From: Meyerozyma guilliermondii
Taxonomy: Eukaryota
NCBI GenBank assembly: GCA_051546255.1
Contig: CP128815.1
Span: 1 to 64,000 of the forward strand
Reading direction: 5' to 3'
Length of the DNA: 64,000 bases
The translations under genes and the position numbers were made by a program. Below the pieces are notes generated by a model. That model did no database searches, was not told the origin of the DNA, and worked only from the letters and a program-made list of their open reading frames with translations. Positions 1 to 39,312 of the stretch are shown here, piece after piece (the first letter of the stretch is position 1; each line of letters begins with the position of its first letter).

Positions 1-1
1 T

Positions 2-394
2 CACCAGTACACCAGTACACCAGTACACCAGTACACCAGTACACCAGTACACCAGTACACCAGTACACCAGTACACCAGTACACCAGTACACCAGTACAC
101 CAGTACACCAGTACACCAGTACACCAGTACACCAGTACACCAGTACACCAGTACACCAGTACACCAGTACACCAGTACACCAGTACACCAGTACACCAGT
201 ACACCAGTACACCAGTACACCAGTACACCAGTACACCAGTACACCAGTACACCAGTACACCAGTACACCAGTACACCAGTACACCAGTACACCAGTACAC
301 CAGTACACCAGTACACCAGTACACCAGTACACCAGTACACCAGTACACCAGTACACCAGTACACCAGTACACCAGTACACCAGTACACCAGTAC
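2..394 (+). repeat. Telomeric repeat tract, (CACCAGTA)n, about 49 copies; C-rich strand on +, so a left chromosome end
   Basis: Uninterrupted 8-bp period from the window start to ...cagtac at 394, then unique sequence. The reverse complement ACTGGTGT matches the short telomere repeat I recall for C. guilliermondii. Confidence 0.97.
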
Positions 395-9584: not shown

Positions 9585-10958
9585 ATGAAGCCTGTTAATT
9601 TGGCTATTGGCTTTTGTCTTGCAACCAATTATGTACATGGTTACCCTACAGTACTTGACAAGAGAAATCTACTTTTAGATGGTTTTGCCAACTTATTCAA
9701 TTCTTCTGGGGATTTAAATGCTTCAATATCCGAGGGTATATTTCAAGACGTCAAAGACCTTGGGGGTATAATTCTGTCGTTGGATTTAATGATTGAATCG
9801 GTAGTGGACACTTCAGAGATCCATGGAATTTCCGGTGCTTTCAATTACCTAAAGGAAATATTTGAAAGCCAAACTTGGAAATCGATATATTCGGGAATAA
9901 TCAAACTGGTTTTTGAGGAAAATGGCCTTGAAACTGTTATTATCAATTATTCTCAACGATTGAATAACCTTAACAATACCAACGCCAGGTCTCCCAAAAG
10001 TGCAGTTTATCCTTCTGCGAATAGTAAGGACGCTCCGTACTCTTTACTGGAGCAAAAATTACGAAGTGCAATTGAAATTCCTTCTGGATATGAATATGGT
10101 AAAGGTGACAAAAAGCCTGTTCTTCTAGTACCGGGAACTGGTTCTTACGGAGGAAACGGTTTCTATACCAATTACATCAAATTGCTTAATCAAACAGATT
10201 TTGCAGATGTTGCTTGGTTGAATATTCCCAACTATTTACTTGAAGATTCCCAGCTGAATGCCGAATATGTGGCCTACGGTGTCAATTATCTTTCTGGGAT
10301 TTCAGAAGGTAAGAAAGTAAGTGTGATATCTTGGTCTCAAGGTGGGCTCATCACTCAATGGGCATTGAAATATTGGCCATCTTTACGTGAAAATATGGGA
10401 GAGTTTATTCCCGTGGCTGCTGACTTTCATGGTACAAAATTGGCCCCGGCTATTTGTCCGTCATTTCCCAAGTTGTCATGTGCTCCTTCAGTTCTTCAAC
10501 AAGAATATAATTCCAACTATGTTCGTACTCTCCGAGAAAATGATGGAGATTCTGCCTATGTTCCAACAACCTCGCTCTTTTCTGGATTTGATGAGATTGT
10601 GCAACCTCAATCTAAAAATGCTTCTGCTGCTCTCAAGGATGCTAGAAATGTTGGGGTAGGAAACTACCAGTTCCAAAACCTTTGTCCAAACAACACTGCA
10701 GGAAGATATTATACTCACGAAGGGTCCCTTTATAATCCTGTTGGCTATGCTTTAGCGGCTGATGCTTTGAAGCATGGTGGAGTGGGAGACCCAAGCAGAA
10801 TTGATCTTGAACATTTATGTACCTTACCATTTCCTGAAGAATTAGACTATGCTGATGTTTTAACCACAGAGGTCGAGTTGTTGTATTGTGGGTTCAACAT
10901 AATTTTCGGAAAAGGCAAAGTGAAGGAAGAACCTAGAATTAGAGACTACGCAAAATAA
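9585..10958 (+). CDS. Secreted lipase B (CalB-like alpha/beta hydrolase)
   Basis: Signal peptide plus KR site; PVLLVPGTG, NAEYV, nucleophile SWSQGG, DFHGT, DEIVQPQ, THEG. Confidence 0.9.
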   Translation: MKPVNLAIGFCLATNYVHGYPTVLDKRNLLLDGFANLFNSSGDLNASISEGIFQDVKDLGGIILSLDLMIESVVDTSEIHGISGAFNYLKEIFESQTWKSIYSGIIKLVFEENGLETVIINYSQRLNNLNNTNARSPKSAVYPSANSKDAPYSLLEQKLRSAIEIPSGYEYGKGDKKPVLLVPGTGSYGGNGFYTNYIKLLNQTDFADVAWLNIPNYLLEDSQLNAEYVAYGVNYLSGISEGKKVSVISWSQGGLITQWALKYWPSLRENMGEFIPVAADFHGTKLAPAICPSFPKLSCAPSVLQQEYNSNYVRTLRENDGDSAYVPTTSLFSGFDEIVQPQSKNASAALKDARNVGVGNYQFQNLCPNNTAGRYYTHEGSLYNPVGYALAADALKHGGVGDPSRIDLEHLCTLPFPEELDYADVLTTEVELLYCGFNIIFGKGKVKEEPRIRDYAK

Positions 10959-12155: not shown

Positions 12156-13994
12156 TCATTGCAGCACACCCTCTCTGCTTTTTTGCAGCAATTTGGTCAA
12201 CTCTGCGTCCAGCGGTAATTCCACCTTCATATCTGGTTTTTGAACTTTCACAGATTGACCGAATACAAGGCATGCATATTTGACCTTGGAATTTGCGCCA
12301 ATACGACCCACCAATTCTGGGAGGAGAACCTTCGACGACAATATATTCGTGTTTGGCTCTGGAGTGCAAACAAGAGCCTCTCTATTATTACCCAAATCAA
12401 CAATCTCGCTGAAATCATCTTCTGTACTAGCCGTAGCGACATTTTCTTCAGCGACTTGTTTGACAGAGTTCTTCTTGTTCACTGAGATTGCAAAACCTCC
12501 TTCTCTAGTGTTGACTATGGAACTCGTCTGATTCTCAATATAGTGTATTCTGATATGATACAGTTCCTTAGGAATAATCCAGGACTCCACTGTGATTCCT
12601 TCTGTAGGAATCCACTCGGATTTTAGGAGATTATTACTCACAAAAGCTCTATAATTCTGTCTCACTAAGAAGTCTTGGTTGTTGAAGCTGAAGCCGAGAG
12701 AATTATCCAAATGAGCTAGTTGGAATGTTCTTGAGTTGCTAACAACCCCGAAACCAAATCGGGTTGAGTATGCAAATTTTGTGTACTTTTCGTTCTGGTA
12801 CTCATCATGCCAAGGTCCATTTATAAGTGCAATCGTATTACCTGGAGAATGGCTAATTGACATTCCGGCCACAGAGAGCAATTTTGTATTATTTTGGGTA
12901 AAATACCAATTCAATTCAACAGGTTCCGATTTCCAAAATGGATGATCTTCACTGAGCATAAGTCCTGAAAAGCCCTTGAACGACCAGTATGGAGATTGTG
13001 GAGAATTGTACCTTTCCATCATATAACCGTTGGGATAAGAATATCCAAGTGAAAGAAAATTTGCACCAAATTCGTTGATAGGTTGTGTGGACCACCATTG
13101 AAGACTCTTAAGGTACAAACTTTTCATTACACCCCAAGGAATTTCAGGCTCTTTCTGAGGGTCCAAAGCTAGAGGTAACAACCCCCAGAAGCCAGAAGTA
13201 GCAAAGCGGTAAATCAATGATCTTCCATATGGAATACATGCGCCATTATCATCAAACCAGTGGATATACTGCTGAGCAAAAAGAGTTGCACGTTCTAGGT
13301 AGTTGTTGCACCTTTCGGGATCTTTGTCTTTCATGACTATGGTGTAGATTAGTCCATAGAAATGGAACGCCAATGCGTTGTAGTTGTCGATTCTGTGTGG
13401 TTTTCCATCTCCATACCAGCCGTCGCCAAGATAAAGCAGATCCAAATCTTCGAGATAATTTGTTGTGCCCCTCTTGTCGTACTTTACACCAACACTATCG
13501 AGACCTAGATCGACTATCACACGGAAAAACTTCCAATTGTTATGGCAATATGTCTTTGACCTTGCTTTCAAAAGGTAGTCTCCAACTCCCAATTTTTCAT
13601 TTTCGTTCAATGGCTCCCAAATATGCTCAGGCACAAAACACAAGGCAAATCCAATCGCCGCAAGGTCCACCAACAATTGGTCGTAGTCATTGGGGTATCC
13701 CCAGAACTCTTTGTGATGAGGATTTGTTCCATTCACTAGTCCTCGACGATACAAGTCCCAATGGCCAAAATTTCCTCCACCGTACTGGTAAGGCACAATT
13801 CCCCACAACGGCCTCAGATAGCCTTCAAACTCGGCAGCAGCTTCCAGGCAAGTTGACCCCAGCTCGCTAACTCTCGATCTTGCTCCGCCCGGCAGGAATG
13901 TGGAGATCAAAGGTTCCGTGAGTTCATCAAATGCTTTGCGAAGGTCGCTGGGTCCAGCAAGTTTATTTTCGTTCCATATGGTAAAAGGTGACAT
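12156..13994 (-). CDS. DUF2264 protein (GH154-like putative beta-glucuronidase), no signal peptide
   Basis: EGYLRPLWG, GTNP..EFWG, DQLLVD, NNWKFF, YLGDGWYGDG, FHFYGL, PYGRSLIYRFA, YNSPQSPYWSFK, KYTKFAYS motifs. Confidence 0.85.
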   Translation of the reverse strand: MSPFTIWNENKLAGPSDLRKAFDELTEPLISTFLPGGARSRVSELGSTCLEAAAEFEGYLRPLWGIVPYQYGGGNFGHWDLYRRGLVNGTNPHHKEFWGYPNDYDQLLVDLAAIGFALCFVPEHIWEPLNENEKLGVGDYLLKARSKTYCHNNWKFFRVIVDLGLDSVGVKYDKRGTTNYLEDLDLLYLGDGWYGDGKPHRIDNYNALAFHFYGLIYTIVMKDKDPERCNNYLERATLFAQQYIHWFDDNGACIPYGRSLIYRFATSGFWGLLPLALDPQKEPEIPWGVMKSLYLKSLQWWSTQPINEFGANFLSLGYSYPNGYMMERYNSPQSPYWSFKGFSGLMLSEDHPFWKSEPVELNWYFTQNNTKLLSVAGMSISHSPGNTIALINGPWHDEYQNEKYTKFAYSTRFGFGVVSNSRTFQLAHLDNSLGFSFNNQDFLVRQNYRAFVSNNLLKSEWIPTEGITVESWIIPKELYHIRIHYIENQTSSIVNTREGGFAISVNKKNSVKQVAEENVATASTEDDFSEIVDLGNNREALVCTPEPNTNILSSKVLLPELVGRIGANSKVKYACLVFGQSVKVQKPDMKVELPLDAELTKLLQKSREGVLQ

Positions 13995-14074: not shown

Positions 14075-14087
14075 ATTTTGGTGGGGG
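14075..14087 (+). promoter_or_regulatory. ATTTTGGTGGGGG motif (Mig1/CreA-type GC box) upstream of the DUF2264 gene
   Basis: Fits AT-rich + SYGGRG; exact reverse complement at 18782-18794. Confidence 0.55.
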
Positions 14088-14121: not shown

Positions 14122-15402
14122 TCAGTCAAGTTGGATATGTAAGAGAATAACGTATCTAGTGTTCGTTCCGGTGGCACGGCCGTCACCGGTGTTTTCTTCG
14201 GGAGCTTCTCTTTGCAAAATGTGGATGTTTTCGGAGTACCTGTCAATCAATGGTTCCCCATCAAGCTTGTCAAACGATGCAACGACGGTCCACTGAGCAC
14301 CCAAATCTTGAATATTTGATTTAACAATCACAAACTTGTGGTTTTGAAGGGGCAGAAATGCATATACAGTGTCTTCTTTGACCAACAATTTCCCCCGAGC
14401 ACCAAAGAGGACCGCAGCATAATCATTGATTCTACGTTTCGCCCATACTCCATCTTTGAAATAATGATAGTAGTAACCATTCTCTCGCCCTAGAACATGT
14501 ACCCGATTTTTCGTATCGACAAATTGACCTTCCTGGTTCATAATACCAGAAAACTTTGGAATCTCCACCACAAGAGTATCTTGCGAAACGTCAACTGGAA
14601 CGGACAATTTCTTCCCTACAGAATTGTACCAGGTGACTCCTTCATCTACAGAATACATGTAGTGGAGATCATGGTTATTTTCGGGACCATTGGGTCCAGC
14701 TTGCAGAGTTGTTTTGTCATCACTTCTATCATCAACATAATCTCTGTAAGTCCAAGTAACATGTAGAATTTTGTTCTTATAGTCAAACCCATGCAAATAT
14801 GCATTATTTTCAACTCCTTTGATGTAAATGCCAATCTCGCTCCACTTGTGTGTATCTCTGCTGAAGCGATATATACAACAGTCACCAAGACCTGATCTTC
14901 CCGATCTGAATTCCAAGAGCAAATCTCCACTTTCCAAGGTTTGAAACCTAGGATAGGTTATTTCCCCAAATTGAAAGGCCATGTTTTCACCTTCAAGTTC
15001 TGTCAATACTGGACCAAATAAATCCGTGGTCCATTCAAGCTTAAGGGGATTGTTGGCTACATCCACTTTAGACTGTCTATAATGTATCTCATCGCCATGC
15101 ATGTCCCAAGCCATATGAATGATTCCATCTCCACTGATTCCCAAAGATATTATATTGTGGCCATCATCTTTAGTTTGAATGTAATCTTTGAAAATTATGA
15201 AACTCCACGGCAGTTTTGTTTTGGGGTTTCTTCTTCCAATTGAAGTAACCCTGGGCCCATCAGGATCAGTTTGGTCTTTTGGTTGGTATAAAACCACATA
15301 CTGGAAACCGTTATATGTCATGATAGCATCCTGCTGAAATGAACAACAGTTGATTCTCCACCCGTTTGGATCGACAGCAAGTCTGGTTAGTTCGATATTC
15401 AT
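14122..15402 (-). CDS. BNR_4 beta-propeller; PL42/GH145-like L-rhamnose-alpha-1,4-glucuronate lyase/rhamnosidase candidate, no signal peptide
   Basis: SFQQDAI, DDGHN.ISLG, HMAWDMH, TYPRF, FRSGRSG, NAYLHG, WTYRD, NHDLHYMYS.D.G.TW Asp-box, IMNQEGQ. Confidence 0.8.
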   Translation of the reverse strand: MNIELTRLAVDPNGWRINCCSFQQDAIMTYNGFQYVVLYQPKDQTDPDGPRVTSIGRRNPKTKLPWSFIIFKDYIQTKDDGHNIISLGISGDGIIHMAWDMHGDEIHYRQSKVDVANNPLKLEWTTDLFGPVLTELEGENMAFQFGEITYPRFQTLESGDLLLEFRSGRSGLGDCCIYRFSRDTHKWSEIGIYIKGVENNAYLHGFDYKNKILHVTWTYRDYVDDRSDDKTTLQAGPNGPENNHDLHYMYSVDEGVTWYNSVGKKLSVPVDVSQDTLVVEIPKFSGIMNQEGQFVDTKNRVHVLGRENGYYYHYFKDGVWAKRRINDYAAVLFGARGKLLVKEDTVYAFLPLQNHKFVIVKSNIQDLGAQWTVVASFDKLDGEPLIDRYSENIHILQREAPEENTGDGRATGTNTRYVILLHIQLD

Positions 15403-15508: not shown

Positions 15509-15521
15509 AAAATGGTGGGGG
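15509..15521 (+). promoter_or_regulatory. AAAATGGTGGGGG motif in the divergent BNR_4/beta-galactosidase promoter
   Basis: Same GC-box type as at 14075 and 18782/18849. Confidence 0.5.
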
Positions 15522-15575: not shown

Positions 15576-18659
<3,084 letters not shown>

Positions 18660-18781: not shown

Positions 18782-18862
18782 CCCCCACCAAAATTAGCGG
18801 TTGCATACTCGAGGTCTGCGGGGTGCATCGGCGCTCGTATTTACCCCACCCCCACCAAAAAT
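18782..18862 (-). promoter_or_regulatory. Two copies of the GGTGGGGG GC-box motif upstream of the transporter
   Basis: CCCCCACCAAAAT at 18782-18794 and CCCCCACCAAAAAT at 18849-18862. Confidence 0.55.
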
Positions 18863-18952
18863 TACAATTGCACCAAAACTACGACAATTCATGCTGGTCT
18901 CCTCATTAGTTGCAATTATAAAGCGATGGATAATGGTCCCAATTCCAATACA

Positions 18953-20575
18953 ATGTCCCAGTCTTCTACTGCTGATAAAGCTCAAGTTATGGTTTCCGTT
19001 GCTTCCCCTACTGATCTGAATCCTGCTGGGGCTACCAGATTGGAAGATGTCATTCCACAACTTGATAAGCCGTGGTATCGCTACGGATGGTTGCTACAGT
19101 TGAACATATTCCTTTTGGGTGGTATTTTGGCTCAAGTTACTTCGGGATACGACGGTTCGATGATGAACTCGTTGCAATCATTACCTAGTTGGCAAGAGTA
19201 TTTCAACCATCCTACTGGTTCCAAGTTGTCTACTATGAGTAATGGTATTGCAATTGGTACATTGGTATCGATTCCATTCACGTGGTGGTTGTGTGATTTC
19301 TTTGGAAGAAGAATTACTATAATAATGGGTTGTACTGTGGTCATCATAGGCGCCATTATCCAGGGTGTAGCGAAGAATTTTGGAATGTTCACCGGAGCCA
19401 GAATTTTATTAGGGGTTGGTTCATGTTTAGCTTCCGCTGCGGCGTCGCCATTATTAGCAGAAACAGCTTACCCTAAACATCGTCCAGCAGTCACAGCATT
19501 ATTGCTCGCATCTTGGCCATTAGGTTCTTTCACGGCTGCCTTGGTCACCTGGGGCCCATACCATTCTTCCATGAAAACGAACAATTGGTCGTGGAGAATC
19601 CCCAGTTTGATCCAGTGCTTCTACCCAGCTATTCAATTGGTTATTTCTATCTTTGGACCCGAATCTCCAAGGTGGTTGATTAACAAAGGACGGGAAGAAG
19701 AAGCCCGCAAGTTTTTTGTCAAGTACCATGCTGGTGGAGACGAAGCGTCAGCCTTGGTTGCATTTGAGCTAGCAGAGATCAAGGCGATCATTGAAAAGGA
19801 AAAAGTTCAAATTCTGAGCAATTTCACCCAATGGTTCAGATCCAAACAACGTCTTAGAAGATTTTTCATTGTCTGTGCCGTTCCCATGATGGCCCAATTG
19901 TGTGGAAATGCTCTTATTTCTTATTACTTGTCCATTGTGTTGAGAAACATCGGCATTACCGACGCTAACGACCAGCTCAAAATCAACATTGGTATGACAG
20001 TTTATGGTCTTGTTTGGGCAGTTGTTGTCGGGATAAATGTTGACAGGTTCCCAAGAAAAACCATGTTCATTGGAGGCTACATCTTGATGTGCATAACCTA
20101 TGTCATTTGGACAATTCTTTCAGCCATCAACCAGCAACAAGACTTTAAGAACAAAGGTTTGGGCAAAGGTGTGGTTGCAATGATCTACCTATTTTCAGGA
20201 TTCTACCACATTGCCTCACCTGTCTCCTCCACTTATGTGATGGAAGTTTGTCCCTATCACTTGAGAGCCCAAGGCTCAACAATATACCAACTTGCTGGTA
20301 ATGTCATTGGCTTCTTCAACAATTACGTGAACAACATTGCCATGGAGGCAATAAAGTGGAAATACTATATTGTGTGGTGTGTTTGGTTGGTGGTCCAGAT
20401 GGGTATAGTCTACTTTATTTTCCCTGAAACCAGAGGATTGGGTTTGGAGGAAGTTGCCCAGGTGTTTGGTGAGGATATTTCCGACGGCTATGCAGCTGGC
20501 GAGAATGCTCTTCATTATGGCATCGACGACACAATTCCCAAGCCAAGTGTGTCTCACGACAGCAAGAGAGTTTAA
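18953..20575 (+). CDS. Sugar porter of the LAC12/cellodextrin-transporter subfamily
   Basis: GYDGSMMNSLQ, FGRR, WSWRIPSL.Q, PESPRWL, Q.CGNALISYYL, FPETRG..LEEV. The upstream ATG at 18926 lies right next to the TATAAA, so 18953 is the likelier start. Confidence 0.9.
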   Translation: MSQSSTADKAQVMVSVASPTDLNPAGATRLEDVIPQLDKPWYRYGWLLQLNIFLLGGILAQVTSGYDGSMMNSLQSLPSWQEYFNHPTGSKLSTMSNGIAIGTLVSIPFTWWLCDFFGRRITIIMGCTVVIIGAIIQGVAKNFGMFTGARILLGVGSCLASAAASPLLAETAYPKHRPAVTALLLASWPLGSFTAALVTWGPYHSSMKTNNWSWRIPSLIQCFYPAIQLVISIFGPESPRWLINKGREEEARKFFVKYHAGGDEASALVAFELAEIKAIIEKEKVQILSNFTQWFRSKQRLRRFFIVCAVPMMAQLCGNALISYYLSIVLRNIGITDANDQLKINIGMTVYGLVWAVVVGINVDRFPRKTMFIGGYILMCITYVIWTILSAINQQQDFKNKGLGKGVVAMIYLFSGFYHIASPVSSTYVMEVCPYHLRAQGSTIYQLAGNVIGFFNNYVNNIAMEAIKWKYYIVWCVWLVVQMGIVYFIFPETRGLGLEEVAQVFGEDISDGYAAGENALHYGIDDTIPKPSVSHDSKRV

Positions 20576-29664: not shown

Positions 29665-29745
29665 GCGGCGGGGCGGTTTGGAGCGGTTTGCGGCAGATTT
29701 TGTTTGGGATGTTCCCCATACAGGAAGCTACCCGCACCGCACCGG
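29665..29745. promoter_or_regulatory. Cluster of CGG/CCG triplets upstream of the FAOD TATA box (candidate Zn2Cys6 sites)
   Basis: gcggcggggcggtttggagcggtttgcggc and ccgcaccgcaccgg in an otherwise AT-rich promoter; TATATAAAA at about 29774. Confidence 0.4.
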
Positions 29746-29805
29746 ATCCACCTTCCTCGTCACTTTGGTAGGGTATATAAAAGAAGTCCATGGCTCTGGA
29801 TCATC

Positions 29806-31089
29806 ATGGAGTCGATAATTATAGTTGGTGCCGGTACTTTTGGGCTTTCCACAGCCTTACAGCTTGCCAGAGATGGATACAAGAACATAAAATGTTTTGA
29901 CAAGTTTCCGGTTCCATCTGAGATAGCTGCTGGAAACGACAGTAACAAGATTTTTCACTACGATTATGTTGCTCCCCTGGCTAAACCCAATTCAAAAGAA
30001 CGGTTGAGTCTCGAAGCATTACACCTTTGGAAGACAGATCCGGTGTACAAACCGTACTATCATCCGGTAGGATTTATCCTGGCTGCAAGTTCCGATGCTC
30101 CATTACTGCATGATAAGGAATACTATGAAGAGTTGCAAAAAAACGGACTTCGCAATTATCGTTATATTTCAACTCCCGAGGAGTTTCGTGAGTATTTGCC
30201 CATTTTAAAGGGCCCGTTACCCAACTGGAGAGGATATGTTCTCGACGGAGATAACGGATGGTTGCATGCTCGAGACTCATTGAAAAGTGCATACGAAGAA
30301 TGCAAACGATTGGGAGTGGAATTTGTGTTTGGAGACGATGGGGAAATTGTCGAATTACTTAACGAAAATGGAAAGTTGACGGGAATTAGGGCCAGATCTG
30401 GTGCCATATTCTCGGCACAAAAATATGTTCTCAGCTCTGGTGCAAATGCAGTAACGTTGTTAAATTTCCAGAGACAGCTAGAAGGTAAATGTTTCACTTT
30501 GGCACATTTCAAAGTGACGGATGAAGAAGCTAAAGCATTTAAAAGCTTGCCGGTCCTTTTCAATGCCGAAAAAGGGTTTTTTTTCGAGGCTGATGAAAAT
30601 AACGAAATCAAAATTTGCAACGAGTACCCTGGATTTACCCACACAAATGAATCCGGAGAGTCTATCCCACTCTACCGGATGGAGATTCCACTCGAGTCAG
30701 CACTTGAAATTAGACAATACTTGAAAGAAACCATGCCTCAGTTTGCTGATAGACCTTTCACCAAGACAAGAATTTGTTGGTGTACCGACTCTCCCGACAT
30801 GCAATTGATCTTGTGTACTCACCCAGAATACACCAACCTTATTGTAGCATCGGGTGACTCTGGAAATTCGTTCAAGATCATGCCAATCATTGGCAAATAT
30901 GTCAGCAAGGTTGTTACCAAAGGTGATAAAGGATTGGATCCGGAAGATAAAGAATGCTGGAAATGGCGTCCTGAGACTTGGGACAAGCGGGGGCAGGTCC
31001 GCTGGGGTGGTCGATACCGTGTTGCGGATTTGAACGAAATTGAAGAATGGGTTTCTGTTGAAAATCCCACACCACACAAACTAGAATAA
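29806..31089 (+). CDS. Fructosyl-amine (fructosyl amino acid) oxidase / amadoriase, 427 aa
   Basis: IIIVGAGTFGLSTAL, AAGNDSNKI, RICWCTDSPD, ASGDSGNSFK, WKWRPE. From ATG 29806 the length and His51/Asn354 match my recollection of Pichia sp. N1-1 FAOD. Confidence 0.93.
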   Translation: MESIIIVGAGTFGLSTALQLARDGYKNIKCFDKFPVPSEIAAGNDSNKIFHYDYVAPLAKPNSKERLSLEALHLWKTDPVYKPYYHPVGFILAASSDAPLLHDKEYYEELQKNGLRNYRYISTPEEFREYLPILKGPLPNWRGYVLDGDNGWLHARDSLKSAYEECKRLGVEFVFGDDGEIVELLNENGKLTGIRARSGAIFSAQKYVLSSGANAVTLLNFQRQLEGKCFTLAHFKVTDEEAKAFKSLPVLFNAEKGFFFEADENNEIKICNEYPGFTHTNESGESIPLYRMEIPLESALEIRQYLKETMPQFADRPFTKTRICWCTDSPDMQLILCTHPEYTNLIVASGDSGNSFKIMPIIGKYVSKVVTKGDKGLDPEDKECWKWRPETWDKRGQVRWGGRYRVADLNEIEEWVSVENPTPHKLE

Positions 31090-31538
31090 AAACAAGATTA
31101 CAACATACATGTCTAAAATCAATATATGTCTACCAACAATAGATCTCTACAAACAATAATTATCTCGATTTATGATTCCTTCTGGGTAAATGGTGATATC
31201 TTTTTGGTACTATTTAGCACAATCAATTAGTAAATTATCTATACTTATCTCGGCGTCAGTTGCCTTTAAATGATGTGGGGTTCTTACTAATGCAAAGCTA
31301 GAAGGTCGATAATTCTTGCCAATTATGTTCATTCTTGGAGATAATTGGCACTGCCATCCGTTTCGGCTCTCCTCCACCTTCTGCTGATTTCGCAACCAAT
31401 TGAATTCGCAGCCGATTGCGCATTGATAAGGATACATGCAGTACATCGAATTGGGCGGAGGTTCGTTAGGAAGGTCGAGTCGCGAGCGCGGAATTGACAC
31501 TTCCAGTATAAAATGGACCAACTTTGGTGGTTGCTCTA

Positions 31539-33167
31539 ATGAGCTTTGAAACGGAAAAAAAGAACCAGCTGGTAGAGGTTGATATAGAAGAAATAAATTC
31601 CCAAGCTCCCGCTTTGGTTGTGCAAAATAAAGACGGAGAAGAATTGAAGCGTGCCCAAATTGTCGATCAACCAACAACTACAAAATGGGAAGTTTTCATG
31701 TATGCACTCTACTACTTTGGAAATAATGCTACTGGTCCTAATCACTTTACTCCTACGCAATATCAAAACTTGTTGAGTCAATCTGGTTGGATAAAAGGAA
31801 AATCAAATGTTTCATGCTCGGATGATCCAAATGGACTGTGTGTGGTATCTTTTGCCGGCACAGTCAAGACGGTGAATTCGGTTGTCTTGATAAATCTGGG
31901 CATCGGATTTGCGTTACAGTCGGTGGTTTTCTTGTTCCTTGGAGGGTTGTCTGATTATGGCCAGTTCGGTTCATGGGTACTCGTTGCCCTTTCTGTTTTG
32001 AGCTGGGGAGTTCAATTTGGTTTCTTGGGTGTACATGACGGAAGCAAACATCAAGCAGCTTTCGCATTGAGTATACTTTCTGCTTTAGGGTATCAAGGAT
32101 GTCAATCATTTTGGACTGCGATGTTTCCACGGTTGGCAAGAAATTTGCCCAAGACAAGAGCCGCTGAAGAAAAAATGCTTAACGGTTCAATCCTGGAATC
32201 TGAATACCATAAGGTGGACTCATACTATCGTAACAAAATCACAAACTACAGTCTTGCTTTTTCCATGTTGGGTTTCACCCTCGTGAGTGCCATTTCTGTT
32301 GGAATCTTAAAGTCGTTGGATTCTACTGCCAATCAAGCAAATAATAATTGGGCTATGTCTGTGTGTATAATGTTTGCAACCGTTTGGTGGATGGTGTTTG
32401 GTATTCCGTGGTTTTTCGCCGAAAAGAAAAGAGTCAATGAAAAGTTACCTGAAGGTGTGAGCTACTTGAGCTTGCCATTCAAACAATTGGGATATGCATT
32501 CAAGAGCTTTCTGAAATTGAAGCAAACTGCGTTATACTTGTTCTCTTACTGGATGTTAGGTGACGGTTTGAATACTGCTATTAGTCTTCAATCAACTATT
32601 CAAAACGAAGTGATTTCTTACGATATGGTCACTTCCATGTATTTGAATATGATCAATGGTGGTACCAATATTTTAGGTACGATATTGTTTTGGTGGTTCC
32701 AGAAAACTTTTAAAGTCTCCACAAGAAACATGTACATTATTTGTTCCGTTTTCATCACTTTGTTCCCAATTTATGGATTGATTGGAACGTGGACAAACAA
32801 GATTGGTTTCCACAACATATGGGAAGTTTGGTTTTATAACGCTTACTTTGGTATATTCATTGGTCCCTATTATGCATACTCATCTACGATGATGAGTGAA
32901 GTTTGTCCAAGAGGTAAAGAATTTGTGTTTTTTGCTATTTTTAGCACCATTAACAAGACTTCCAGCTTCATTGGACCTTTTGTTTCTTCCGCCATCATTG
33001 ACGACACAGGAAATAATAATAGTGGATTTTCATTCCTAGTGGCCCTTTGCTGTGTGTCATTGGCATCTTCATTTTTCTTGAACGAAGACAATGCAAGAGT
33101 TCAAGCTGAGGAGTTCTTACTTGAAGAGAAAAAGCGCATAGCGAATGGTGAATCGCTCGTGTTCTGA
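31539..33167 (+). CDS. ATG22-like MFS transporter, copy A (542 aa)
   Basis: About 12 TMs; GGLSDYG, FWTAMFPRLARN, GDGLNT, SEVCPRG.EF.FF..FS.INK.SSFIGP. First ATG at 31539. Confidence 0.85.
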   Translation: MSFETEKKNQLVEVDIEEINSQAPALVVQNKDGEELKRAQIVDQPTTTKWEVFMYALYYFGNNATGPNHFTPTQYQNLLSQSGWIKGKSNVSCSDDPNGLCVVSFAGTVKTVNSVVLINLGIGFALQSVVFLFLGGLSDYGQFGSWVLVALSVLSWGVQFGFLGVHDGSKHQAAFALSILSALGYQGCQSFWTAMFPRLARNLPKTRAAEEKMLNGSILESEYHKVDSYYRNKITNYSLAFSMLGFTLVSAISVGILKSLDSTANQANNNWAMSVCIMFATVWWMVFGIPWFFAEKKRVNEKLPEGVSYLSLPFKQLGYAFKSFLKLKQTALYLFSYWMLGDGLNTAISLQSTIQNEVISYDMVTSMYLNMINGGTNILGTILFWWFQKTFKVSTRNMYIICSVFITLFPIYGLIGTWTNKIGFHNIWEVWFYNAYFGIFIGPYYAYSSTMMSEVCPRGKEFVFFAIFSTINKTSSFIGPFVSSAIIDDTGNNNSGFSFLVALCCVSLASSFFLNEDNARVQAEEFLLEEKKRIANGESLVF

Positions 33168-33483
33168 TTTATATAGTTATTTTCAATTGATTACACTGGT
33201 GCATCTCACCTTTATGGTGGATGAACAACACTTTAGACTTCAGTACTATTCTTACAATTCACCAGGTTGCAACCGATTCAATGCACCAGTGCACCAGCAT
33301 CTGATACGTTGCAGAGGAACTGTAAGAGGTGCTGATTATAGCACAATTATAATGTTTGCTTGTTATTCTGCGCTCTGAGGGATTGCTGGTCGGTGCCAAT
33401 TCTCCTTCCATGTGCTTTCCTCTTCTATCACTGTGTCATTTGCAACTCTACGAATGGCTGCAAAATTTGCTAATTTCATAATT

Positions 33484-33590
33484 CTACGAACACCATTCTG
33501 TGGGATTATATAAGTCCCTTGTCCTCCTTGGTTTTCATCTGAGTAACGCAAAGGAGGCTATAAATCAATTCTAAATTGGGGCAAGAAACA
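33484..33590 (-). pseudogene. Truncated, decayed 3' end of the ketopantoate-reductase-like gene
   Basis: Near-identical to 39584-39713 (e.g. ccttggttttcatctga, taaatcaattctaaattggggcaagaaaca) with an internal deletion. Confidence 0.85.
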
Positions 33591-34042
33591 GCTACGAAAA
33601 TACAGAATTCTGTTTCCTACAGAATAACATTGGGATTTGTGGTTGCATCATCGCCTGAATTAGCAGGTGCTATATTTCAACATCAGGTTTTTACCACTTC
33701 TCTATGTGGAGTCTATGCTACTACCTGTGATTAAGTTTCATCACGCTTGGAAAGAAGTTACCCTTTACATCCTAGGTGCCTCTGGTATTAGATATCATAT
33801 ACGAGCTCTCCGCAAATGAAAGGTCACGTAATGTCATTATTGTTATTCGCATCCGCCACTTCGGTTGCAATATCTCAAGCGCTGAAAGACTCCTACTTCA
33901 TTTGCAGCTTGTGCAATTGCTGGATTTGTTTCTGGACTCTTTTGGTTCCAAATTCGCAACCTTGATAGGTTCTCAGTTTGTCGTATCACCTTCCTATTTG
34001 GGAACTTGCCTACGCAAGTGAAAACTACTCGATTGTTTCATA

Positions 34043-35966
34043 ATGAAAAGAATACGTCGAGGAACCAAACGCGGAGGATGCTTGGCTTGCAAGAAACGAA
34101 AGTAGGTATAGTGTTATGTCTTTAAGAATGTGGATTTTAACCTTACAGTAAACAATGTGACTACAATACGAAAAAAAATGCTTGTTCCTTTTGTTTGCGA
34201 GTTAACATTCCATGCGAAAGACCTGGCTTTAGTGTAATTGCATACAATGGAAACAAAAAGAAGGAGCCAATTAGTCTCAAGTTCAACCCGCTAAATAATC
34301 AGCAAAGAATAAATTTTGAGCTTTGCAATGAAATCATTAGCGATTATTTATCTTCAGCCAATCGGTGTGATTTAACTTCATTTACCATAATAACCCCGGG
34401 CATCGAAAGTATCTACGAAAGAAGTTTAACATTCTCCGAACATTTGATTTTGTATGAAAAAACTAGAGAAATTCCTCTTGTTGATGATAAAACGTCTATC
34501 GAAAGGTCTACCAAAACCGCATTTGGCATTCAAAGTGCAAACGAACTACCTCATAGGATAGCAACTTCTAAGAAGAGGATTTACCTGGAACCTAGAATTG
34601 AATTTGTGTCTGACAAAGTACCTGCGGATATTCTGAATCACGATTTACGTGATATCGATACTGGCAATTTTATCAATGAATTATTCATACAAATGCCAGC
34701 TTTAAAACTGCAAAAATTACATGTACCCAATTACATTTCTTTACAATCTGCAAGTGCATTATTCAACAGCTTTTGTTTGGAATTTCCTCAGGAAACTTGC
34801 AAACTATTCTATGCAACTTGTGATGAGAATTCAATTGCATATCGTGATTTCACCAAGCTATCTTTGAAGGTTTATATTTCGCTTGCATTCAGCAATATTA
34901 CAGTATTCAAGGCTCTCCTATATTGGTCAGCCTCATACTTCCAGCTGAAGGAGAAATCTGTTGAAGAATCACTTCTATCGAAGCTTATGAACGACATTGT
35001 TCAAGACATGAACAAAAGATTGATTTACAAATCTTCTGCCTGTTGTGATCATATGATCGCAATAGTGTGTATTTTGTTTGAAGTGGAAAATTTGAAACAG
35101 CAAGTGGACTCCAAATTTTGGTTGAAGCTTACGGGCTTGGCCATTAAAATACTTTCAATGAGAGGAGGCGTCGATCAACTAAGTAAAACGAATATGGGTT
35201 TTTCTTTGCGAGATTATTTGGAACATATTTCTTTACTAGATTCGGGTTTAATCTCTTGGATCATGAAATGCAAAGGTTTAACATACAAGACATGCAATCG
35301 ATATACATGTTACCTGCCGCTTCCAATCCAAATTCATATTATAAGTGTATGAAGAGCATTTGTTCTGTTGTTGGTGAGTCCTTACATCTTTACAACTTGA
35401 AGAAGGTCGCCATAAATGCCGATGATCTTAATGAGCTGTTAGGATATAACCATTACCAGAACATTGAAACTGTGATCAAAGATGCGAAGTTTCTATTAAA
35501 ACAATTGAGTTCAATAGATGTTCCTGATGATGATTCTGAGATAATGAGAATCGATTCTCATATAATGAGACGCATTGCAGAGTTCTCAAAAGAGGCAACA
35601 GTCCTATTGATATATCAGTTGATATACAATAATTCATCTAGGACAACCACAACTTTGCTTCAAGTTATGAAGATGATACCTTTACTTCGAGAATTGTTTG
35701 AATTGTATCATTCAAATCAAAACTCCACGCAAGTACTTTTAATACTTCCTATTTTTGTTCTTGGTTGTAACCTTTATAAACATTCTTATCGGAGGTGGTT
35801 CATTGAAAATATTGACCGGATTTATTTGAAAACAAAAACTGCTAAAATTTTGACTGTTAAAACATTGGTTAAAAAAGTGTGGACCTTGGACGATAATGGT
35901 AATAAACCAGTACAATGGCCGGAAATAAGTGAGCACGAGGGACTATTATTGCCTTTTTATATCTAA
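34043..35966 (+). CDS. Zn(II)2Cys6 transcription factor with a 47-nt intron (34102-34148) and a single-base frameshift near 35199-35203
   Basis: Splicing GTAGGT...TTTAAC..TACAG gives CLACKKRNKQCDYNTKKNACSFCLRVNIPC in frame with ORF 34195. Adding one T in the T5 run joins ORF 34195-35352 to ORF 35256-35966 (..MGFFFARLFG..LILPIFVLGC..). Confidence 0.85.
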
Positions 35967-35985
35967 AATGTTCGTCTTTTCTCAC

Positions 35986-37038
35986 TTACCTCTTTCTTGT
36001 GTTGGCGGTATACTCTTTTTCAATTTCTTCGACCAAGGTTCCTACCATATAAGCTGCACCATATGAAAAGGCATAGCCTTTACCATTGAATCCATAAGCA
36101 TGAAGGATGTACTTGTTCTTCGCAACCTGTTCTTTTTCCAATCTAAACCCTCCTTTTCTAGCAGGTCTTATTCCAACGACATAACCCGCAATATCAGGCG
36201 CTTTTGAAATCACCTCAGGTGCGAGCTTATGAGCTCTTCTGATTTCATCCTCAACAATTTCCATATCAATGTCAGCGTGAGTTTTATTGGGTTCATTCAC
36301 ACCTCCACAAACCACTACCCCAGAGAGTGGCCGAGGTATTACATATGTATACTCTTCACCGCTACGACTAAACCCTTTGTCAGTTTTCGTCCGAACAAGC
36401 ACATTTTGTCCTCGATTGGGATAGCATTTATCATCTTCCAACCCTTTGATTGTCATAGGTCCAATTCCAGATGCGTTAACAAAAACGATACTATCTTCGT
36501 AGTCTTGATAGAGCTCATCCATGGATGCAATTGATCTGCAAATAAAGTGGCCGCCAAGGTTTTCAATCTCTTGTTTTATGAATTTGAGATAACGACGAGG
36601 CTCGATTGCTAATGTTTCATACTCACAACCATATTCAAACCCAGTACCCTCATATTTTGATTTTTCCATATCTCTGAACTTTGGATTTACTCCCTTAAAC
36701 CATAGGTCCAGATCCTTGGGTTTTTTCTCAAAATATTCATCTAATTGAATAACACATACTCCACATTCAGGACTATTGAAGTTGTCACTCTTGAACCGGC
36801 GGTATGATACTGCCTCTAGATAACGATGGAGATCGTTAGGTAAGTCTGGAGCACCATGCCACAATGCACCAGCCCAGGTTGACGCATACCATATATCTTC
36901 GTCGCCAGGAAGATGTTTGGCAACAATCGTGACTTGAAATCCCTGCTGCAATAAGGTTCTTGCGGTGACACAACCGATAATTCCAGCACCTAAAACGACA
37001 ATTCTTCTTTCCTGAAATGGACTGCTACCTAATGACAT
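35986..37038 (-). CDS. D-amino-acid/D-aspartate oxidase family flavoprotein
   Basis: IVVLGAGIIG, YASTWAGA, VNASGIG, YPNRGQ, TYVIPR, VGIRPARKGG.R, HAYGFNG.GY..SYG. First ATG at 37038. Confidence 0.92.
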   Translation of the reverse strand: MSLGSSPFQERRIVVLGAGIIGCVTARTLLQQGFQVTIVAKHLPGDEDIWYASTWAGALWHGAPDLPNDLHRYLEAVSYRRFKSDNFNSPECGVCVIQLDEYFEKKPKDLDLWFKGVNPKFRDMEKSKYEGTGFEYGCEYETLAIEPRRYLKFIKQEIENLGGHFICRSIASMDELYQDYEDSIVFVNASGIGPMTIKGLEDDKCYPNRGQNVLVRTKTDKGFSRSGEEYTYVIPRPLSGVVVCGGVNEPNKTHADIDMEIVEDEIRRAHKLAPEVISKAPDIAGYVVGIRPARKGGFRLEKEQVAKNKYILHAYGFNGKGYAFSYGAAYMVGTLVEEIEKEYTANTRKR

Positions 37039-37242
37039 TCTTATGCCTCCAAGGTGCCGCGGCCATCTTATATTCACTATGCGCGCTTCCTAATTCGGAA
37101 GGTGATACGATGCATACCAGCTAATACGACTCGATTAGATACGGTTTATCCGTTTTAACATTAATTCTCACTAATCAATATGCCGAAGTCTATAGAGTAT
37201 AGATTACATCCTGCTGTTTATTGGCAATTTCTCCTTCCCAGA

Positions 37243-37256
37243 GTGTACTGGTGTAC
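37243..37256 (+). repeat. Internal telomere-like 14-mer GTGTACTGGTGTAC (candidate Rap1 site)
   Basis: Exact 1.75 copies of the telomere repeat, G-rich on +, in the DAO/ATG22-B divergent intergenic region. Confidence 0.6.
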
Positions 37257-37683
37257 AAGACTGAATAGGTGAATATATGAAGAAAGCTACAAGAAAGTAG
37301 ACTAAGAAAGAGAAGGAATACACACTCTTTGTAATTGAACAAACCTAAGGAATGAACCTAAGGTAGCTTTTTACTGAAGGTAGAACTTATGGCTTATTCT
37401 ATATCTCGCCTTCAGTTGCCCCGATGGCCGTAGGTGAGTTCCTGAAGGTGTACAGACCCAGAAGGAGAAGGCGACCGGGCCGGACTCCAGGGATTTCGGG
37501 CGATAATTGCCATTGTTTCAACTAGATCTCTGCTCCACCTGAATTTCGCAGCCAACTGGATTTGGCTGCAGATAGCGCATTGATAAGGGTACATGCAGTA
37601 CTCACATCTGAGTGGACGCTCAATTGCAAGGCCGAGTCATGAGGGAAAAACTATAAAATGGTACCACTCCGGTGAATGCTCTA

Positions 37684-39312
37684 ATGAGTTTTGAAGAGGA
37701 AAAAAAGAACCAGCAAGTAGAGGTGGACATAGAGGAGGTCAATTCTCAAGCTCCCGCTTTGGTTGTGCAAAATAAAGACGGCGAAGAATTAAAGCGGGCT
37801 CATATTGTAGATCAACCAACAACTACAAAATGGGAAGTTTTCATGTATGCACTCTACTACTTTGGAAATAATTCTTCCGGCCCCTCTTCTTTCACGCCCA
37901 CCCAGTATCAGAACTTGTTGAGTCAATCTGGTTGGATAAAAGGAAACCGGAAAGCTTCATGTTCGGATGATCCCAACGGACTGTGTGTGGTTTCGTTTGC
38001 CGGTACGACCAAGACAGTGAATTCGGTGGTGTTACTTAACCTGGGCATTGGTTTTGCATTGCAATCGGTGGTTTTCTTGTTTCTTGGAGGTTTGTCCGAT
38101 TATGGCCAATATGGTTCTTGGGTACTTATAGGCCTTTCGTTGTTGAGTTGGGGAGTTCAATTGGGCTTCTTGGGTGTTCATGATGGAAGCAAACACGAAG
38201 CAGCTTTTGCATTGAGTGTGCTTGCCTCGTTAGGGTACCATGGATGTCAATCTTTTTGGACGGCCATGTTTCCACGTTTGGCAAGAAACTTGCCAAAGAC
38301 AAGAGAAGCAGAAGAAAAAATGCTCAATGGCACAATTCTGGAATCTGAGTATCACAGTGTTGACTCTTACTATCGTAACAAAATCTCAAATTACAGTTTT
38401 GCATTTTCCATGGTTGGTTTCGTGCTCGTGTGTGCCATTTCAATTGGCATTTTGAAGGGCATGGATTCTACCGCCAGTGATGCGAACAACAATTGGTCTA
38501 TGTCCATCTGTATTATGACTGCAACAGTGTGGTGGATCGTATTTGGTACTCCTTGGTTCTTCACCGAAAAGAAAAGAGTCAATGAAAAGTTACCCGAAGG
38601 TGTGAGCTACTGGACCTTACCCTTTAGACAATTGGTATATGCGTTCAAGAGTTTTGTGAAGTTGAGGCAAACTGCGTTATACTTGTTCTCCTACTGGTTG
38701 TTGGGTGATGGCTTGAACACCTCTATAAGGCTTCAATCGACTATTCAGAACGAAGTGATATCTTACGATATGGTCACTTCCATGTACATGAACTTTCTTA
38801 ACGGTGGCACCAGCATAGTAGGTGTGTTAATGTTCTGGTGGCTCCAGAAAACCTTCAAAATTTCCACGAGAAACATGTACATTTTGTGCTCTATTTTCAT
38901 TACGTTGTTTCCACTTTACGGATTGATTGGAACCTGGACAAACAAAATTGGTTTCCATAACGTTTGGGAAAATTGGTTCTACAACGCCTACTATGGTTTG
39001 CTCATTAATCCGTATTATGTATATTCATCAACAATGATGAGTGAAGTTTGTCCAAGAGGAAGGGAATTTGTGTTTTTCGCCATTTTCAGCACTATTAACA
39101 AAACCTCAAGTTTAATTGGACCTTTTGTTTCCTCCGCCATCATTGAAGACACGGGAAACAATAATACTGGGTTCTCCTTCCTTGTGGCAATATGCATCTT
39201 GTCGTTGGTGTCCTCATGTTTCTTGGATCAAGACAAGGCAAGAGTTCAGTCTGAGGAGTTTTTACTCGAGGAACAAAGACGGATAGCGTATGGTGAGTCG
39301 CTCATATTCTAA
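37684..39312 (+). CDS. ATG22-like MFS transporter, copy B (542 aa)
   Basis: Colinear, same-length paralogue of copy A (31539-33167). First ATG at 37684. Confidence 0.85.
   Translation: MSFEEEKKNQQVEVDIEEVNSQAPALVVQNKDGEELKRAHIVDQPTTTKWEVFMYALYYFGNNSSGPSSFTPTQYQNLLSQSGWIKGNRKASCSDDPNGLCVVSFAGTTKTVNSVVLLNLGIGFALQSVVFLFLGGLSDYGQYGSWVLIGLSLLSWGVQLGFLGVHDGSKHEAAFALSVLASLGYHGCQSFWTAMFPRLARNLPKTREAEEKMLNGTILESEYHSVDSYYRNKISNYSFAFSMVGFVLVCAISIGILKGMDSTASDANNNWSMSICIMTATVWWIVFGTPWFFTEKKRVNEKLPEGVSYWTLPFRQLVYAFKSFVKLRQTALYLFSYWLLGDGLNTSIRLQSTIQNEVISYDMVTSMYMNFLNGGTSIVGVLMFWWLQKTFKISTRNMYILCSIFITLFPLYGLIGTWTNKIGFHNVWENWFYNAYYGLLINPYYVYSSTMMSEVCPRGREFVFFAIFSTINKTSSLIGPFVSSAIIEDTGNNNTGFSFLVAICILSLVSSCFLDQDKARVQSEEFLLEEQRRIAYGESLIF

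What the first reader, a model, noticed from the sequence alone, without database searches (positions are those of the whole stretch)
14122..15402. BNR_4 protein keeps a PL42 lyase-type active-site set, yet no GH105/GH88 partner is in the cluster
Seen: His82 (DDGHN) and His102 (WDMH) 20 residues apart, then TYPRF, FRSG, NAY, WTYR, NQE and a late GARG. From memory this is the order of the anterior-face catalytic and binding residues in FoRham1. A lyase would leave a 4,5-unsaturated GlcA, normally removed by GH105/GH88. Inference: either the neighbouring DUF2264 protein handles unsaturated glucuronides (a new activity for that family), or this propeller acts as a hydrolase, or the partner gene lies elsewhere.
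Basis: partly seen in the sequence, partly recalled or inferred. Interest (0 to 1): 0.7.

Follow-up and report, generated by a model that had tools for sequence, protein, structure and literature searches.

The report
Split yeast rhamnose-glucuronate degradation cluster
This yeast gene very likely encodes an intracellular enzyme that snips rhamnose off plant-gum sugars, and the partner enzyme thought to be missing sits about 360 kb away on the same chromosome with a shared promoter motif, so the pathway is complete but split in two.

Summary
Window 14122-15402 (-) encodes a whole, signal-peptide-less PL42 protein. It keeps 12 of the 13 FoRham1 active-site residues (Tyr26 is Phe), and its model matches FoRham1 at Z 52, rmsd 1.8 A. 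The posterior hydrolase histidine is absent. No GH88/GH105 lies in the window.

The puzzle does not survive. A Pfam search misses the partner, but a GH88 from a related yeast's cluster finds an intact GH88 at G000:C1:372132-373355. It sits beside the ortholog of that cluster's C2H2 regulator, an aldolase and an aldo-keto reductase. The only 9-mer shared by the three window promoters recurs in 3 of 4 promoters there and in 1 of 54 controls. PL42 and GH88 are adjacent in four other named yeasts; Meyerozyma has split the cluster.

The DUF2264 neighbour is a GH154-type glucuronate dehydratase homologue with all 10 mutated residues kept. It would make unsaturated ends, not remove them.

Best reading: a cytosolic route for imported Rha-GlcA-Gal oligosaccharides. 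The parts are known; the yeast regulon and a possible KduI-free fate of 5-keto-4-deoxyuronate were not found in print. No activity or expression was tested.

The parts
14122..15402 (-). PL42 (ex-GH145) seven-bladed beta-propeller, predicted cytosolic L-rhamnose-alpha-1,4-D-glucuronate lyase
   Evidence: Pfam BNR_4; FoRham1 E 6.5e-74; model pLDDT 88.8, TM 0.87, Z 52.3, rmsd 1.8 A over 396 residues to 7esk; no hydrophobic N-terminus and an in-frame stop 9 codons upstream
12156..13994 (-). DUF2264 + DUF2264_C protein (GH154 family), predicted beta-D-glucuronate dehydratase
   Evidence: Pfam; best PDB sequence hits 9o4u and 9nwf, E 1.7e-19 and 1.2e-18; residues matching BcGDH Y229, R285, Y289, N176, N177, W178, F181, Y354 are aligned, and an E-x3-R pair matches E74/R78 by spacing only; fold hits are GH154 and toroid-plus-sandwich lyases
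15615..18659 (+). LacZ-type GH2 beta-galactosidase, single copy, no signal peptide; occupies the place that GH88 holds in the related cluster L003
   Evidence: Pfam GH2 domains; NCBIfam LacZ/Ebg-type hits E 1e-233 or better, below cut-offs; single copy; gene order
18926..20575 (+). Sugar-porter MFS transporter, ortholog of the L003 cluster transporter; predicted oligosaccharide importer
   Evidence: Pfam Sugar_tr; TIGR00879; 79% identical to the L003 transporter; substrate is inference
14079..14087 (-). CCCCCACCA site in the DUF2264 promoter
15513..15521 (-). CCCCCACCA site in the 212-bp divergent PL42/GH2 promoter
18782..18790 (+). CCCCCACCA site in the transporter promoter
18849..18857 (+). 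second CCCCCACCA site in the transporter promoter

Best explanation
The gene encodes a cytosolic PL42 lyase, one step of a split, co-regulated yeast module that strips acidic caps from imported oligosaccharides, most likely Rha-alpha-1,4-GlcA-beta-1,6-Gal fragments of plant arabinogalactan-proteins. Inferred order: (1) the sugar porter imports the oligosaccharide; (2) PL42 removes Rha by syn-beta-elimination (His82 base/acid; Arg166, His102 and Tyr150 neutralise the carboxylate; Asp80 bridges the two His), leaving a 4,5-unsaturated GlcA end; (3) ends that carry plain GlcA are brought to the same unsaturated form by the DUF2264/GH154 dehydratase; (4) the GH88 encoded at C1:372 kb releases 5-keto-4-deoxyuronate; (5) GH2 removes the exposed galactose; (6) Rha enters the complete LRA pathway on C5. 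Shown here: gene identities, residue conservation, folds, gene order, the motif. Inferred: all activities, the substrate, co-expression.
For: PL42 residues and fold. GH88 in the own genome, 58% identical to the GH88 that lies head to head with PL42 in L003; it keeps the equivalents of UGL W42, F46, D88, D149, H193 (W56, F60, D111, D179, H223). The C2H2 regulator beside it is the ortholog (56%) of the regulator next to DUF2264 in L003. Consecutive accessions for PL42 and GH88 in Sungouiella intermedia, Debaryomyces fabryi, Myxozyma melibiosi and Dipodascopsis tothii. Motif derived from the window alone is in 3 of 4 promoters at the GH88 locus and 1 of 54 controls, that one sharing the aldolase's gap. 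Dehydratase-GH88 pairing shown in bacteria (PMC12269599); PL42 product cleaved by a GH105 in B. plebeius (PMC8406133). L-rhamnose genes present.
Against: Bacteroides PL42 enzymes with the same catalytic set cleave wine AGP but not gum arabic, so residues do not fix the substrate. Phe22 lacks the OH by which Tyr26 binds Rha O3, and a ~14-residue insert after Arg220 is poorly modelled. No GH43 match and no GH79 match in the genome (the GH79 control rang nowhere), so the oligosaccharide supply is unexplained and would have to come from other organisms. The motif also fits a Mig1-type site (recalled consensus) and is dense at a paralogous regulator cluster on C5, so it need not mean one regulon. 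The link is not strict: PL42 and GH88 are far apart in Trichomonascus, and no Yamadazyma tenuis or Kockiozyma GH88 appears in the 120 listed hits. Known GH88 substrates are mainly glycosaminoglycan-derived.
Confidence: 0.75

Rival explanations
1. Same chemistry, other substrate: the module removes uronate caps from another glycan (fungal or bacterial capsule fragments, glycosaminoglycan or ulvan-like oligosaccharides), and this PL42 clade accepts a different sugar at subsite -1.
For: Phe for Tyr26 in 97 of 120 homologues; insert near the +1 site; no AGP-releasing enzymes found; D. hansenii holds at least 4 GH88 and a DUF2264 while no D. hansenii PL42 is named in the lists; L004 has DUF2264 and GH88 without PL42 within its 21.6 kb.
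Against: Arg336, Asn289, Gln290, Glu383, Tyr150 and His82, the other Rha contacts, are kept; a beta-galactosidase is in the cluster; the LRA pathway is present.
Confidence: 0.13
2. PL42 is a lyase working on its own on the disaccharide Rha-GlcA; the free unsaturated uronate opens spontaneously, so no GH88 is needed and the distant GH88 serves something else.
For: FoRham1 prefers Rha-GlcA five-fold over the tetrasaccharide and its product opens non-enzymatically (PMC8377490); GH88 is 360 kb away here.
Against: It leaves the dehydratase and GH2 without a role; PL42-GH88 adjacency in four other yeasts; shared motif; no GH79 found to supply the disaccharide (inconclusive).
Confidence: 0.06
3. The DUF2264 protein removes unsaturated (or saturated) glucuronate by hydrolysis.
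For: It is adjacent to PL42; it is only distantly related to BcGDH (E 1e-19) and has an extra C-terminal domain; earlier papers reported hydrolase activity for GH154 (as cited in PMC12269599).
Against: Dehydratase residues kept; BT3677, which also has a second domain, is a dehydratase; no GH88/GH105 among the 40 fold matches listed; a real GH88 exists.
Confidence: 0.03
4. The propeller acts as a retaining rhamnosidase like BT3686.
For: Homology to BT3686 (E 2.4e-27; NCBIfam NF052497 at 133 bits against a cut-off of 700).
Against: The posterior His position is Tyr30; the full anterior lyase set is kept; it is far closer to FoRham1.
Confidence: 0.03

Closest known systems
FoRham1, PL42 L-rhamnose-alpha-1,4-D-glucuronate lyase of Fusarium oxysporum (PDB 7ESK)
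   Same: Fold (Z 52.3, rmsd 1.8 A, 38% identity in the structural alignment), His-His-Asp triad, Arg neutraliser, 12 of 13 site residues, Tyr at the posterior His position
   Different: No signal peptide (FoRham1 is secreted); Phe for Tyr26; ~14-residue insert before GPNG; linked to GH88, a dehydratase, GH2 and a transporter, whereas FoRham1 is proposed to follow a GH79
Bacteroides PL42/GH145 (BT3686, BpGH145) with GH105
   Same: Anterior lyase site; product handed to an unsaturated-uronyl hydrolase (BpGH105) encoded in the same locus
   Different: 23-26% identity; partner here is GH88; no posterior rhamnosidase site; yeast cytosol
BcGDH / BT3677 glucuronate dehydratases (GH154) paired with GH88 (PMC12269599)
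   Same: Catalytic Tyr/Tyr/Arg set kept in the DUF2264 neighbour; pairing with GH88
   Different: Eukaryotic, two-domain 612-aa form, combined with PL42; no yeast or fungal member found in my paper searches
GH88 unsaturated glucuronyl hydrolase (Bacillus UGL 1VD5, 3WIW)
   Same: W42, F46, D88, D149, H193 equivalents kept in the C1:372 kb gene; E 1.6e-44 to 3WIW
   Different: Scores below the Pfam PF07470 cut-off; predicted plant-glycan rather than glycosaminoglycan substrate
Fungal D-galacturonate pathway (GaaC aldolase, GaaD reductase) and eukaryotic AKR-type DEH reductases
   Same: A DHDPS-family aldolase and an aldo-keto reductase flank the GH88 and carry the motif
   Different: No galactonate dehydratase at this locus; entry would be by reducing C1 of 5-keto-4-deoxyuronate, a step I did not find described in fungi

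Membership tests
PL42 | Seven-bladed beta-propeller closest to FoRham1/ex-GH145 | tested here: met
   Top 8 rows are FoRham1 and ex-GH145 structures, Z 41-52; PL24/PL25 follow at Z 30-31
PL42 | BNR_4 (PF15892) domain | tested here: met
   223 bits, cut-off 27.3
PL42 | Anterior His-His-Asp triad plus Arg, Tyr, Tyr, Arg at subsite +1 | tested here: met
   D80, H82, H102, Y150, R166, Y202, R220 by sequence alignment; side-chain superposition was not available
PL42 | Rha-binding set at subsite -1 (Tyr26, Asn275, Gln276, Arg331, Glu381) | tested here: inconclusive
   4 of 5 kept; Tyr26 is Phe22, the majority residue in fungal homologues
PL42 | Beta-elimination of Rha-alpha-1,4-GlcA | not testable with these tools
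   needs assay
GH145-type posterior rhamnosidase (BT3686) | Catalytic His48 on the posterior face | tested here: not met
   Tyr30, aligned with FoRham1 Tyr34, which PMC8377490 equates with His48
GH154 / glucuronate dehydratase (window 12156-13994) | Tyr base, Tyr acid, Arg and NNW motif of BcGDH | tested here: met
   Y205, Y262, R258, N152, N153, W154, F157, Y329 aligned to 9nwf; E57/R61 by spacing
GH154 / glucuronate dehydratase (window 12156-13994) | Dehydration of terminal beta-GlcA | not testable with these tools
   needs assay
GH88 (G000:C1:372132-373355) | UGL catalytic Asp149 and Asp88, Trp42, His193 | tested here: met
   D179, D111, W56, H223 via the L003 ortholog and direct hits to GH88 structures
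GH88 (G000:C1:372132-373355) | Pfam PF07470 above cut-off | tested here: not met
   24.2 bits against 26.6; most named fungal GH88 hits also lack the Pfam label, so this is a limit of the profile
GH88/GH105 as identity of the DUF2264 protein | Sequence or fold match to unsaturated-uronyl hydrolases | tested here: inconclusive
   No such hit among 4 sequence matches or the 40 fold rows listed; unlisted families are not excluded
Bacterial KduI/KduD route for 5-keto-4-deoxyuronate | KduI (PF04962) in the genome | tested here: inconclusive
   0 candidates, control rang in 6 of 14 genomes; a family search missed GH88 in this genome, so absence is soft

The most novel reading that the evidence does not exclude
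Budding yeasts carry a complete intracellular, bacterial-PUL-like regulon for uronate caps, including a KduI-free eukaryotic route for 5-keto-4-deoxyuronate. The aldo-keto reductase beside GH88 reduces its C1 aldehyde to 2-keto-3-deoxy-L-galactonate, and the neighbouring DHDPS-family aldolase splits that into pyruvate and L-glyceraldehyde. This would show how fungi use the end product of pectin, arabinogalactan and glucuronan lyases, and dehydratase plus GH88 would be a second fungal way to consume glucuronate without a glucuronidase.
Probability: 0.35. Interest if true: 0.7.

Novelty: new variant of a known kind. Interest (0 to 1): 0.45.

Why it matters
It removes a false anomaly: the missing partner is an artefact of a split cluster and of a Pfam profile that misses yeast GH88. 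It also assigns likely functions to several unannotated yeast genes and extends two recently defined bacterial and mould chemistries (PL42 lyase, GH154 dehydratase) to a cytosolic module conserved from Lipomycetales to CTG-clade yeasts. If the reductase and aldolase step holds, it gives a short route for unsaturated uronates in a yeast, useful for engineering yeasts on lyase-treated biomass.

Tried and rejected
Pfam PF07470 search of the own genome: 0 candidates. This was a false negative, overturned by a protein search. DUF2264 as unsaturated glucuronyl hydrolase and PL42 as hydrolase: rejected (see rivals). Second copies of PL42, DUF2264 or GH2 in the genome: none. Ortholog of the L004 Gfo/Idh/MocA oxidoreductases: only 2 weak matches at 20% identity. 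KduI, GH43 and GH79 searches: no candidates (the GH79 control rang nowhere). The metagenome scan gave 2 fungal-type loci that I could recognise among 80; the rest look bacterial. The first tree run did not finish and was replaced by FastTree. Poisson P values for the motif are post hoc and are not used; the split test is. No earlier scan findings matched. Expression could not be examined. No complex prediction was sent, as no binding claim is made. The upstream lipase-like ORF (9585-10958), the ABC transporter and the Zn-cluster gene lack the motif and have no counterpart in L003, so they are left out of the module.

Full report
Setting. The window is the left end of contig C1 of a 10.66-Mb, 8-contig genome and starts with a telomeric 8-mer repeat. 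The table-12 (CTG=Ser) translation of the gene is found letter for letter in the protein collection, in a 90% cluster with Meyerozyma guilliermondii proteins. So this is a CTG-clade yeast of that group. The cluster lies 12-21 kb from the telomere: DUF2264 (12156-13994, -), BNR_4 (14122-15402, -), GH2 (15615-18659, +), sugar porter (18926-20575, +), with gaps of only 127, 212 and 266 bp.

The protein. It matches FoRham1 at E 6.5e-74 and the Bacteroides ex-GH145 proteins at E 1e-24 to 1e-27. The AlphaFold model (pLDDT 88.8) matches 7ESK with TM 0.87 and Z 52.3, rmsd 1.8 A over 396 residues. PMC8377490 (parts 1-5 of 7 read) and PMC10951650 (passages) define the site: His85 base/acid, His105, Asp83, Arg166, Tyr150, Tyr202, Ser170, Arg220 at +1; Tyr26, Asn275, Gln276, Arg331, Glu381 at -1. 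Twelve of these 13 are kept, at D80, H82, H102, Y150, R166, S170, Y202, R220, N289, Q290, R336, E383. Tyr26, whose OH binds Rha O3, is Phe22; Phe is the residue in 97 of 120 homologues. The posterior position that carries the rhamnosidase His48 in BT3686 is Tyr30, as Tyr34 in FoRham1. There is no hydrophobic N-terminus (best 9-residue hydropathy 0.66, against 2.2 and 3.4 for two secreted-type controls in the window) and an in-frame stop lies 9 codons upstream. In a FastTree of 114 of the 121 sequences (7 under 360 aa dropped), the protein sits in a clade of 20 with support 0.996, none with a hydrophobic N-terminus by this proxy; four of these start at an internal Met, so the proxy is weaker for them. 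I read it as a cytosolic PL42 lyase. The mapping is by sequence and backbone; side chains were not superposed.

The DUF2264 neighbour. Its best solved relatives are the beta-D-glucuronate dehydratase BcGDH (9O4U, 9NWF) and 8OI4. PMC12269599 (parts 1-4 of 8 read) shows that BcGDH and BT3677, the founder of GH154, dehydrate terminal GlcA to the 4,5-unsaturated form, which GH88 then cleaves, and it proposes this for the whole family. Eight of the ten residues mutated there align directly (Y205 = Y229 base, Y262 = Y289 acid, R258 = R285, N152, N153, W154, F157, Y329); E57 and R61 match E74 and R78 by spacing and are invariant in 23 yeast-clade sequences. The model (pLDDT 77) finds GH154 structures and toroid-plus-sandwich lyases, and no GH88/GH105 among the 40 rows listed. 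The neighbour would therefore add a second source of unsaturated ends, which makes a GH88/GH105 more necessary, not less.

Finding the partner. A PF07470 search of the genome gave 0 candidates. A metagenome scan with a yeast DUF2264 alignment returned 80 loci. One, L003, whose PL42 clusters with Sungouiella intermedia proteins, reads: transporter and GH88 on one strand, PL42 and DUF2264 on the other, then a C2H2 regulator. Its GH88 has no Pfam hit but matches GH88 structures at E 1.9e-36. Used as query, it finds one match in the own genome, an open 407-aa frame at C1:372132-373355, 58% identical. That protein scores 24.2 bits on PF07470, under the 26.6 cut-off, matches 3WIW at E 1.6e-44, and keeps W56, F60, D111, D179 and H223, the equivalents of UGL W42, F46, D88, D149 and H193 (residue roles from passages of PMC4528949). 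Its neighbours are a DHDPS-family protein (370783-371727), a C2H2 plus fungal-TF-domain regulator (373420-375690) that is 56% identical to the one beside DUF2264 in L003, and an aldo-keto reductase (from 375878, with a short 5' intron). In the window, GH2 occupies the place GH88 holds in L003.

An old cluster, split here. Accessions are consecutive for GH88, PL42 and DUF2264 in S. intermedia (SGZ47225-47227), for GH88 and PL42 in Debaryomyces fabryi (KSA03931/2), Myxozyma melibiosi (KAK7204069/70) and Dipodascopsis tothii (KAK9472188/9), and two apart for GH88 and DUF2264 in Scheffersomyces xylosifermentans. Four unnamed PL42/GH88 pairs share a contig length (46452, 10591, 4407, 3097 bp), which I take as the same contig. 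Of 8 named yeasts with a PL42 in these lists, 4 have GH88 adjacent, 2 have it far away (Meyerozyma: PGUG_00007/8 against PGUG_00214; Trichomonascus), and 2 are unresolved (Y. tenuis and Kockiozyma, with no GH88 among the 120 listed). A second fungal locus, L004, joins a C2H2 regulator, DUF2264, a DHDPS-family protein, GH88 and two Gfo/Idh/MocA oxidoreductases, without PL42. Over all 80 loci, 17 have a GH88 match in their flanks (13 of 43 loci of 15 kb or more); GH105 was not tested there.

Shared promoter motif. CCCCCACCA is the only 9-mer common to the three window gaps. The window has 5 copies, 4 in these gaps, against 0.32 expected from shuffles. As an independent test, it is in 3 of 4 promoters at the GH88 locus (aldolase 1, GH88 2, reductase 2, regulator 0) and in 1 of 54 control promoters, that one being the gene that shares the aldolase's gap. 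It is also upstream of DUF2264 and the transporter in L003. The rhamnose cluster and a galactonate-dehydratase-like cluster have looser SYGGRG sites but no copy of the 9-mer in 10 kb each. Against a simple reading: there are 117 copies in the genome (control 48), 9 of them at a C5 cluster around a paralogous C2H2 regulator (39% identical) with another aldolase, and the sequence fits the Mig1 consensus (recalled). The regulator's finger helices (RSDHLAR, RKDVRDK) would read a GTG-GGG core by the usual recognition code (recalled), which fits the motif but does not separate it from Mig1.

How it most likely works. Imported Rha-GlcA-Gal oligosaccharides lose Rha to PL42; uncapped GlcA ends are dehydrated by the DUF2264 enzyme; both give the same unsaturated end, which GH88 removes as 5-keto-4-deoxyuronate; GH2 takes the galactose. 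A complete L-rhamnose set lies at C5:584-592 kb (rhamnonate dehydratase above its NCBIfam cut-off, Lra1-like dehydrogenase just under its cut-off, lactonase-like, aldolase, regulator, GH78). All activities are inferred. The substrate is the softest point: Bacteroides PL42 enzymes cleave wine AGP but not gum arabic (passages of PMC8406133), and I found no GH43 or GH79 to release oligosaccharides (the latter uninformative), so the yeast would be a scavenger.

The bolder reading. No KduI was found. By stereochemistry (my inference), reducing C1 of the L-threo keto-deoxyuronate gives 2-keto-3-deoxy-L-galactonate, the substrate of the fungal GaaC aldolase (pathway from passages of PMC4990863). Eukaryotic reductases of the L-erythro isomer are aldo-keto reductases acting on C1 (passages of PMC8778563). 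The aldolase beside GH88 is 44-53% identical to three paralogues, among them those in the rhamnose and galactonate-dehydratase-like clusters. A review lists 5-keto-4-deoxyuronate catabolism only under bacteria (passages of PMC6353982), and PMC12838403 has no mention of fungi or yeast (passages). Against it: the reductase is not within 10 kb of DUF2264 in L003 or L004; it may be a general aldehyde reductase or act only on glyceraldehyde; and an oxidative route exists for the other isomer (PMC8563752, search listing only). I give it 0.35.

Print. Searches for FoRham1, GH154, GH88 with yeast and gene cluster, PL42 with yeast and arabinogalactan, Meyerozyma with GH88 or GH154, DUF2264 with fungal and cluster (0 papers), and fungal keto-deoxyuronate reductases showed no description of this yeast module in the listings. 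The library lacks most subscription papers. No supplements were opened; the alignments in the FoRham1 and BcGDH supplements could bear on residue mapping.

Verdict. What remains of interest is a cytosolic, split, apparently co-regulated yeast version of the lyase/dehydratase plus GH88 strategy, with a testable candidate for the downstream step. New variant of a known kind; interest 0.45.

Noticed in passing
window 1-392: Telomeric 8-base tandem repeat; the 123-aa ORF at 1-372 is an artefact of it.
   Followed up: yes
P0281, P0283: In the M. guilliermondii ATCC 6260 annotation the PL42 is split in two (PGUG_00007, 173 aa; PGUG_00008, 270 aa), while the window's ORF is whole; sequencing error or strain pseudogene.
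   Followed up: no
P0279, P0293; P0498: Records labelled Naganishia cerealis and Staphylococcus equorum fall in 90% clusters of CTG-clade yeast proteins; probably mislabelled or contaminating contigs.
   Followed up: no
G000:C5:29670-40478 (L124, L125): A second cluster around a paralogous C2H2 regulator: MFS transporter, esterase, D-serine-dehydratase-like PLP enzyme and a DHDPS-family aldolase, with 9 copies of the same motif; substrate unknown.
   Followed up: partly
G000:C3:1479439-1481037 (L127): A paralogue of the window transporter (55% identical) with the motif upstream, divergent from a short-chain dehydrogenase; possible further member of the regulon.
   Followed up: partly
G000:C5:3611-8682 (L126): Subtelomeric cluster of a lactonase-like gene, a Gfo/Idh/MocA oxidoreductase, an UNC-93-like transporter, an esterase and a regulator, with 2 motif copies.
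   Followed up: partly
G000:C7:34226-38409 (L137): Enolase-family dehydratase, DHDPS-family aldolase and sugar porter in a row; resembles the fungal L-galactonate dehydratase and aldolase pair (resemblance recalled, not tested).
   Followed up: partly
P0456, P0470, P0484, P0499: Debaryomyces hansenii holds at least four GH88 paralogues; an expansion that Pfam-based counts would miss.
   Followed up: no
window 41138-45212: Tandem duplication of a divergent bZIP plus short-chain dehydrogenase gene pair (259 and 265 aa, twice).
   Followed up: no
window 29704-39312: Two FAD-dependent oxidase genes, each near an Atg22-like transporter, with fungal-TF-domain genes; the one at 34195-35966 is in two overlapping frames.
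   Followed up: no
window 46011-47678: Amino-acid permease in two ORFs (336 and 204 aa); broken gene, intron or sequencing error.
   Followed up: no
window 9585-10958: Secreted-type 457-aa protein without Pfam hit, with a SWSQG motif that recalls CalB-type lipases (recalled, not tested).
   Followed up: no
window 49491-49997: Phenolic acid decarboxylase (PF05870), 168 aa.
   Followed up: no
L004:5974-18431: A fungal locus with two Gfo/Idh/MocA oxidoreductases (67% identical to each other) around DUF2264; related oxidoreductases lie near DUF2264 in 11 more of the 80 loci and may be another way of handling the GH88 product.
   Followed up: partly
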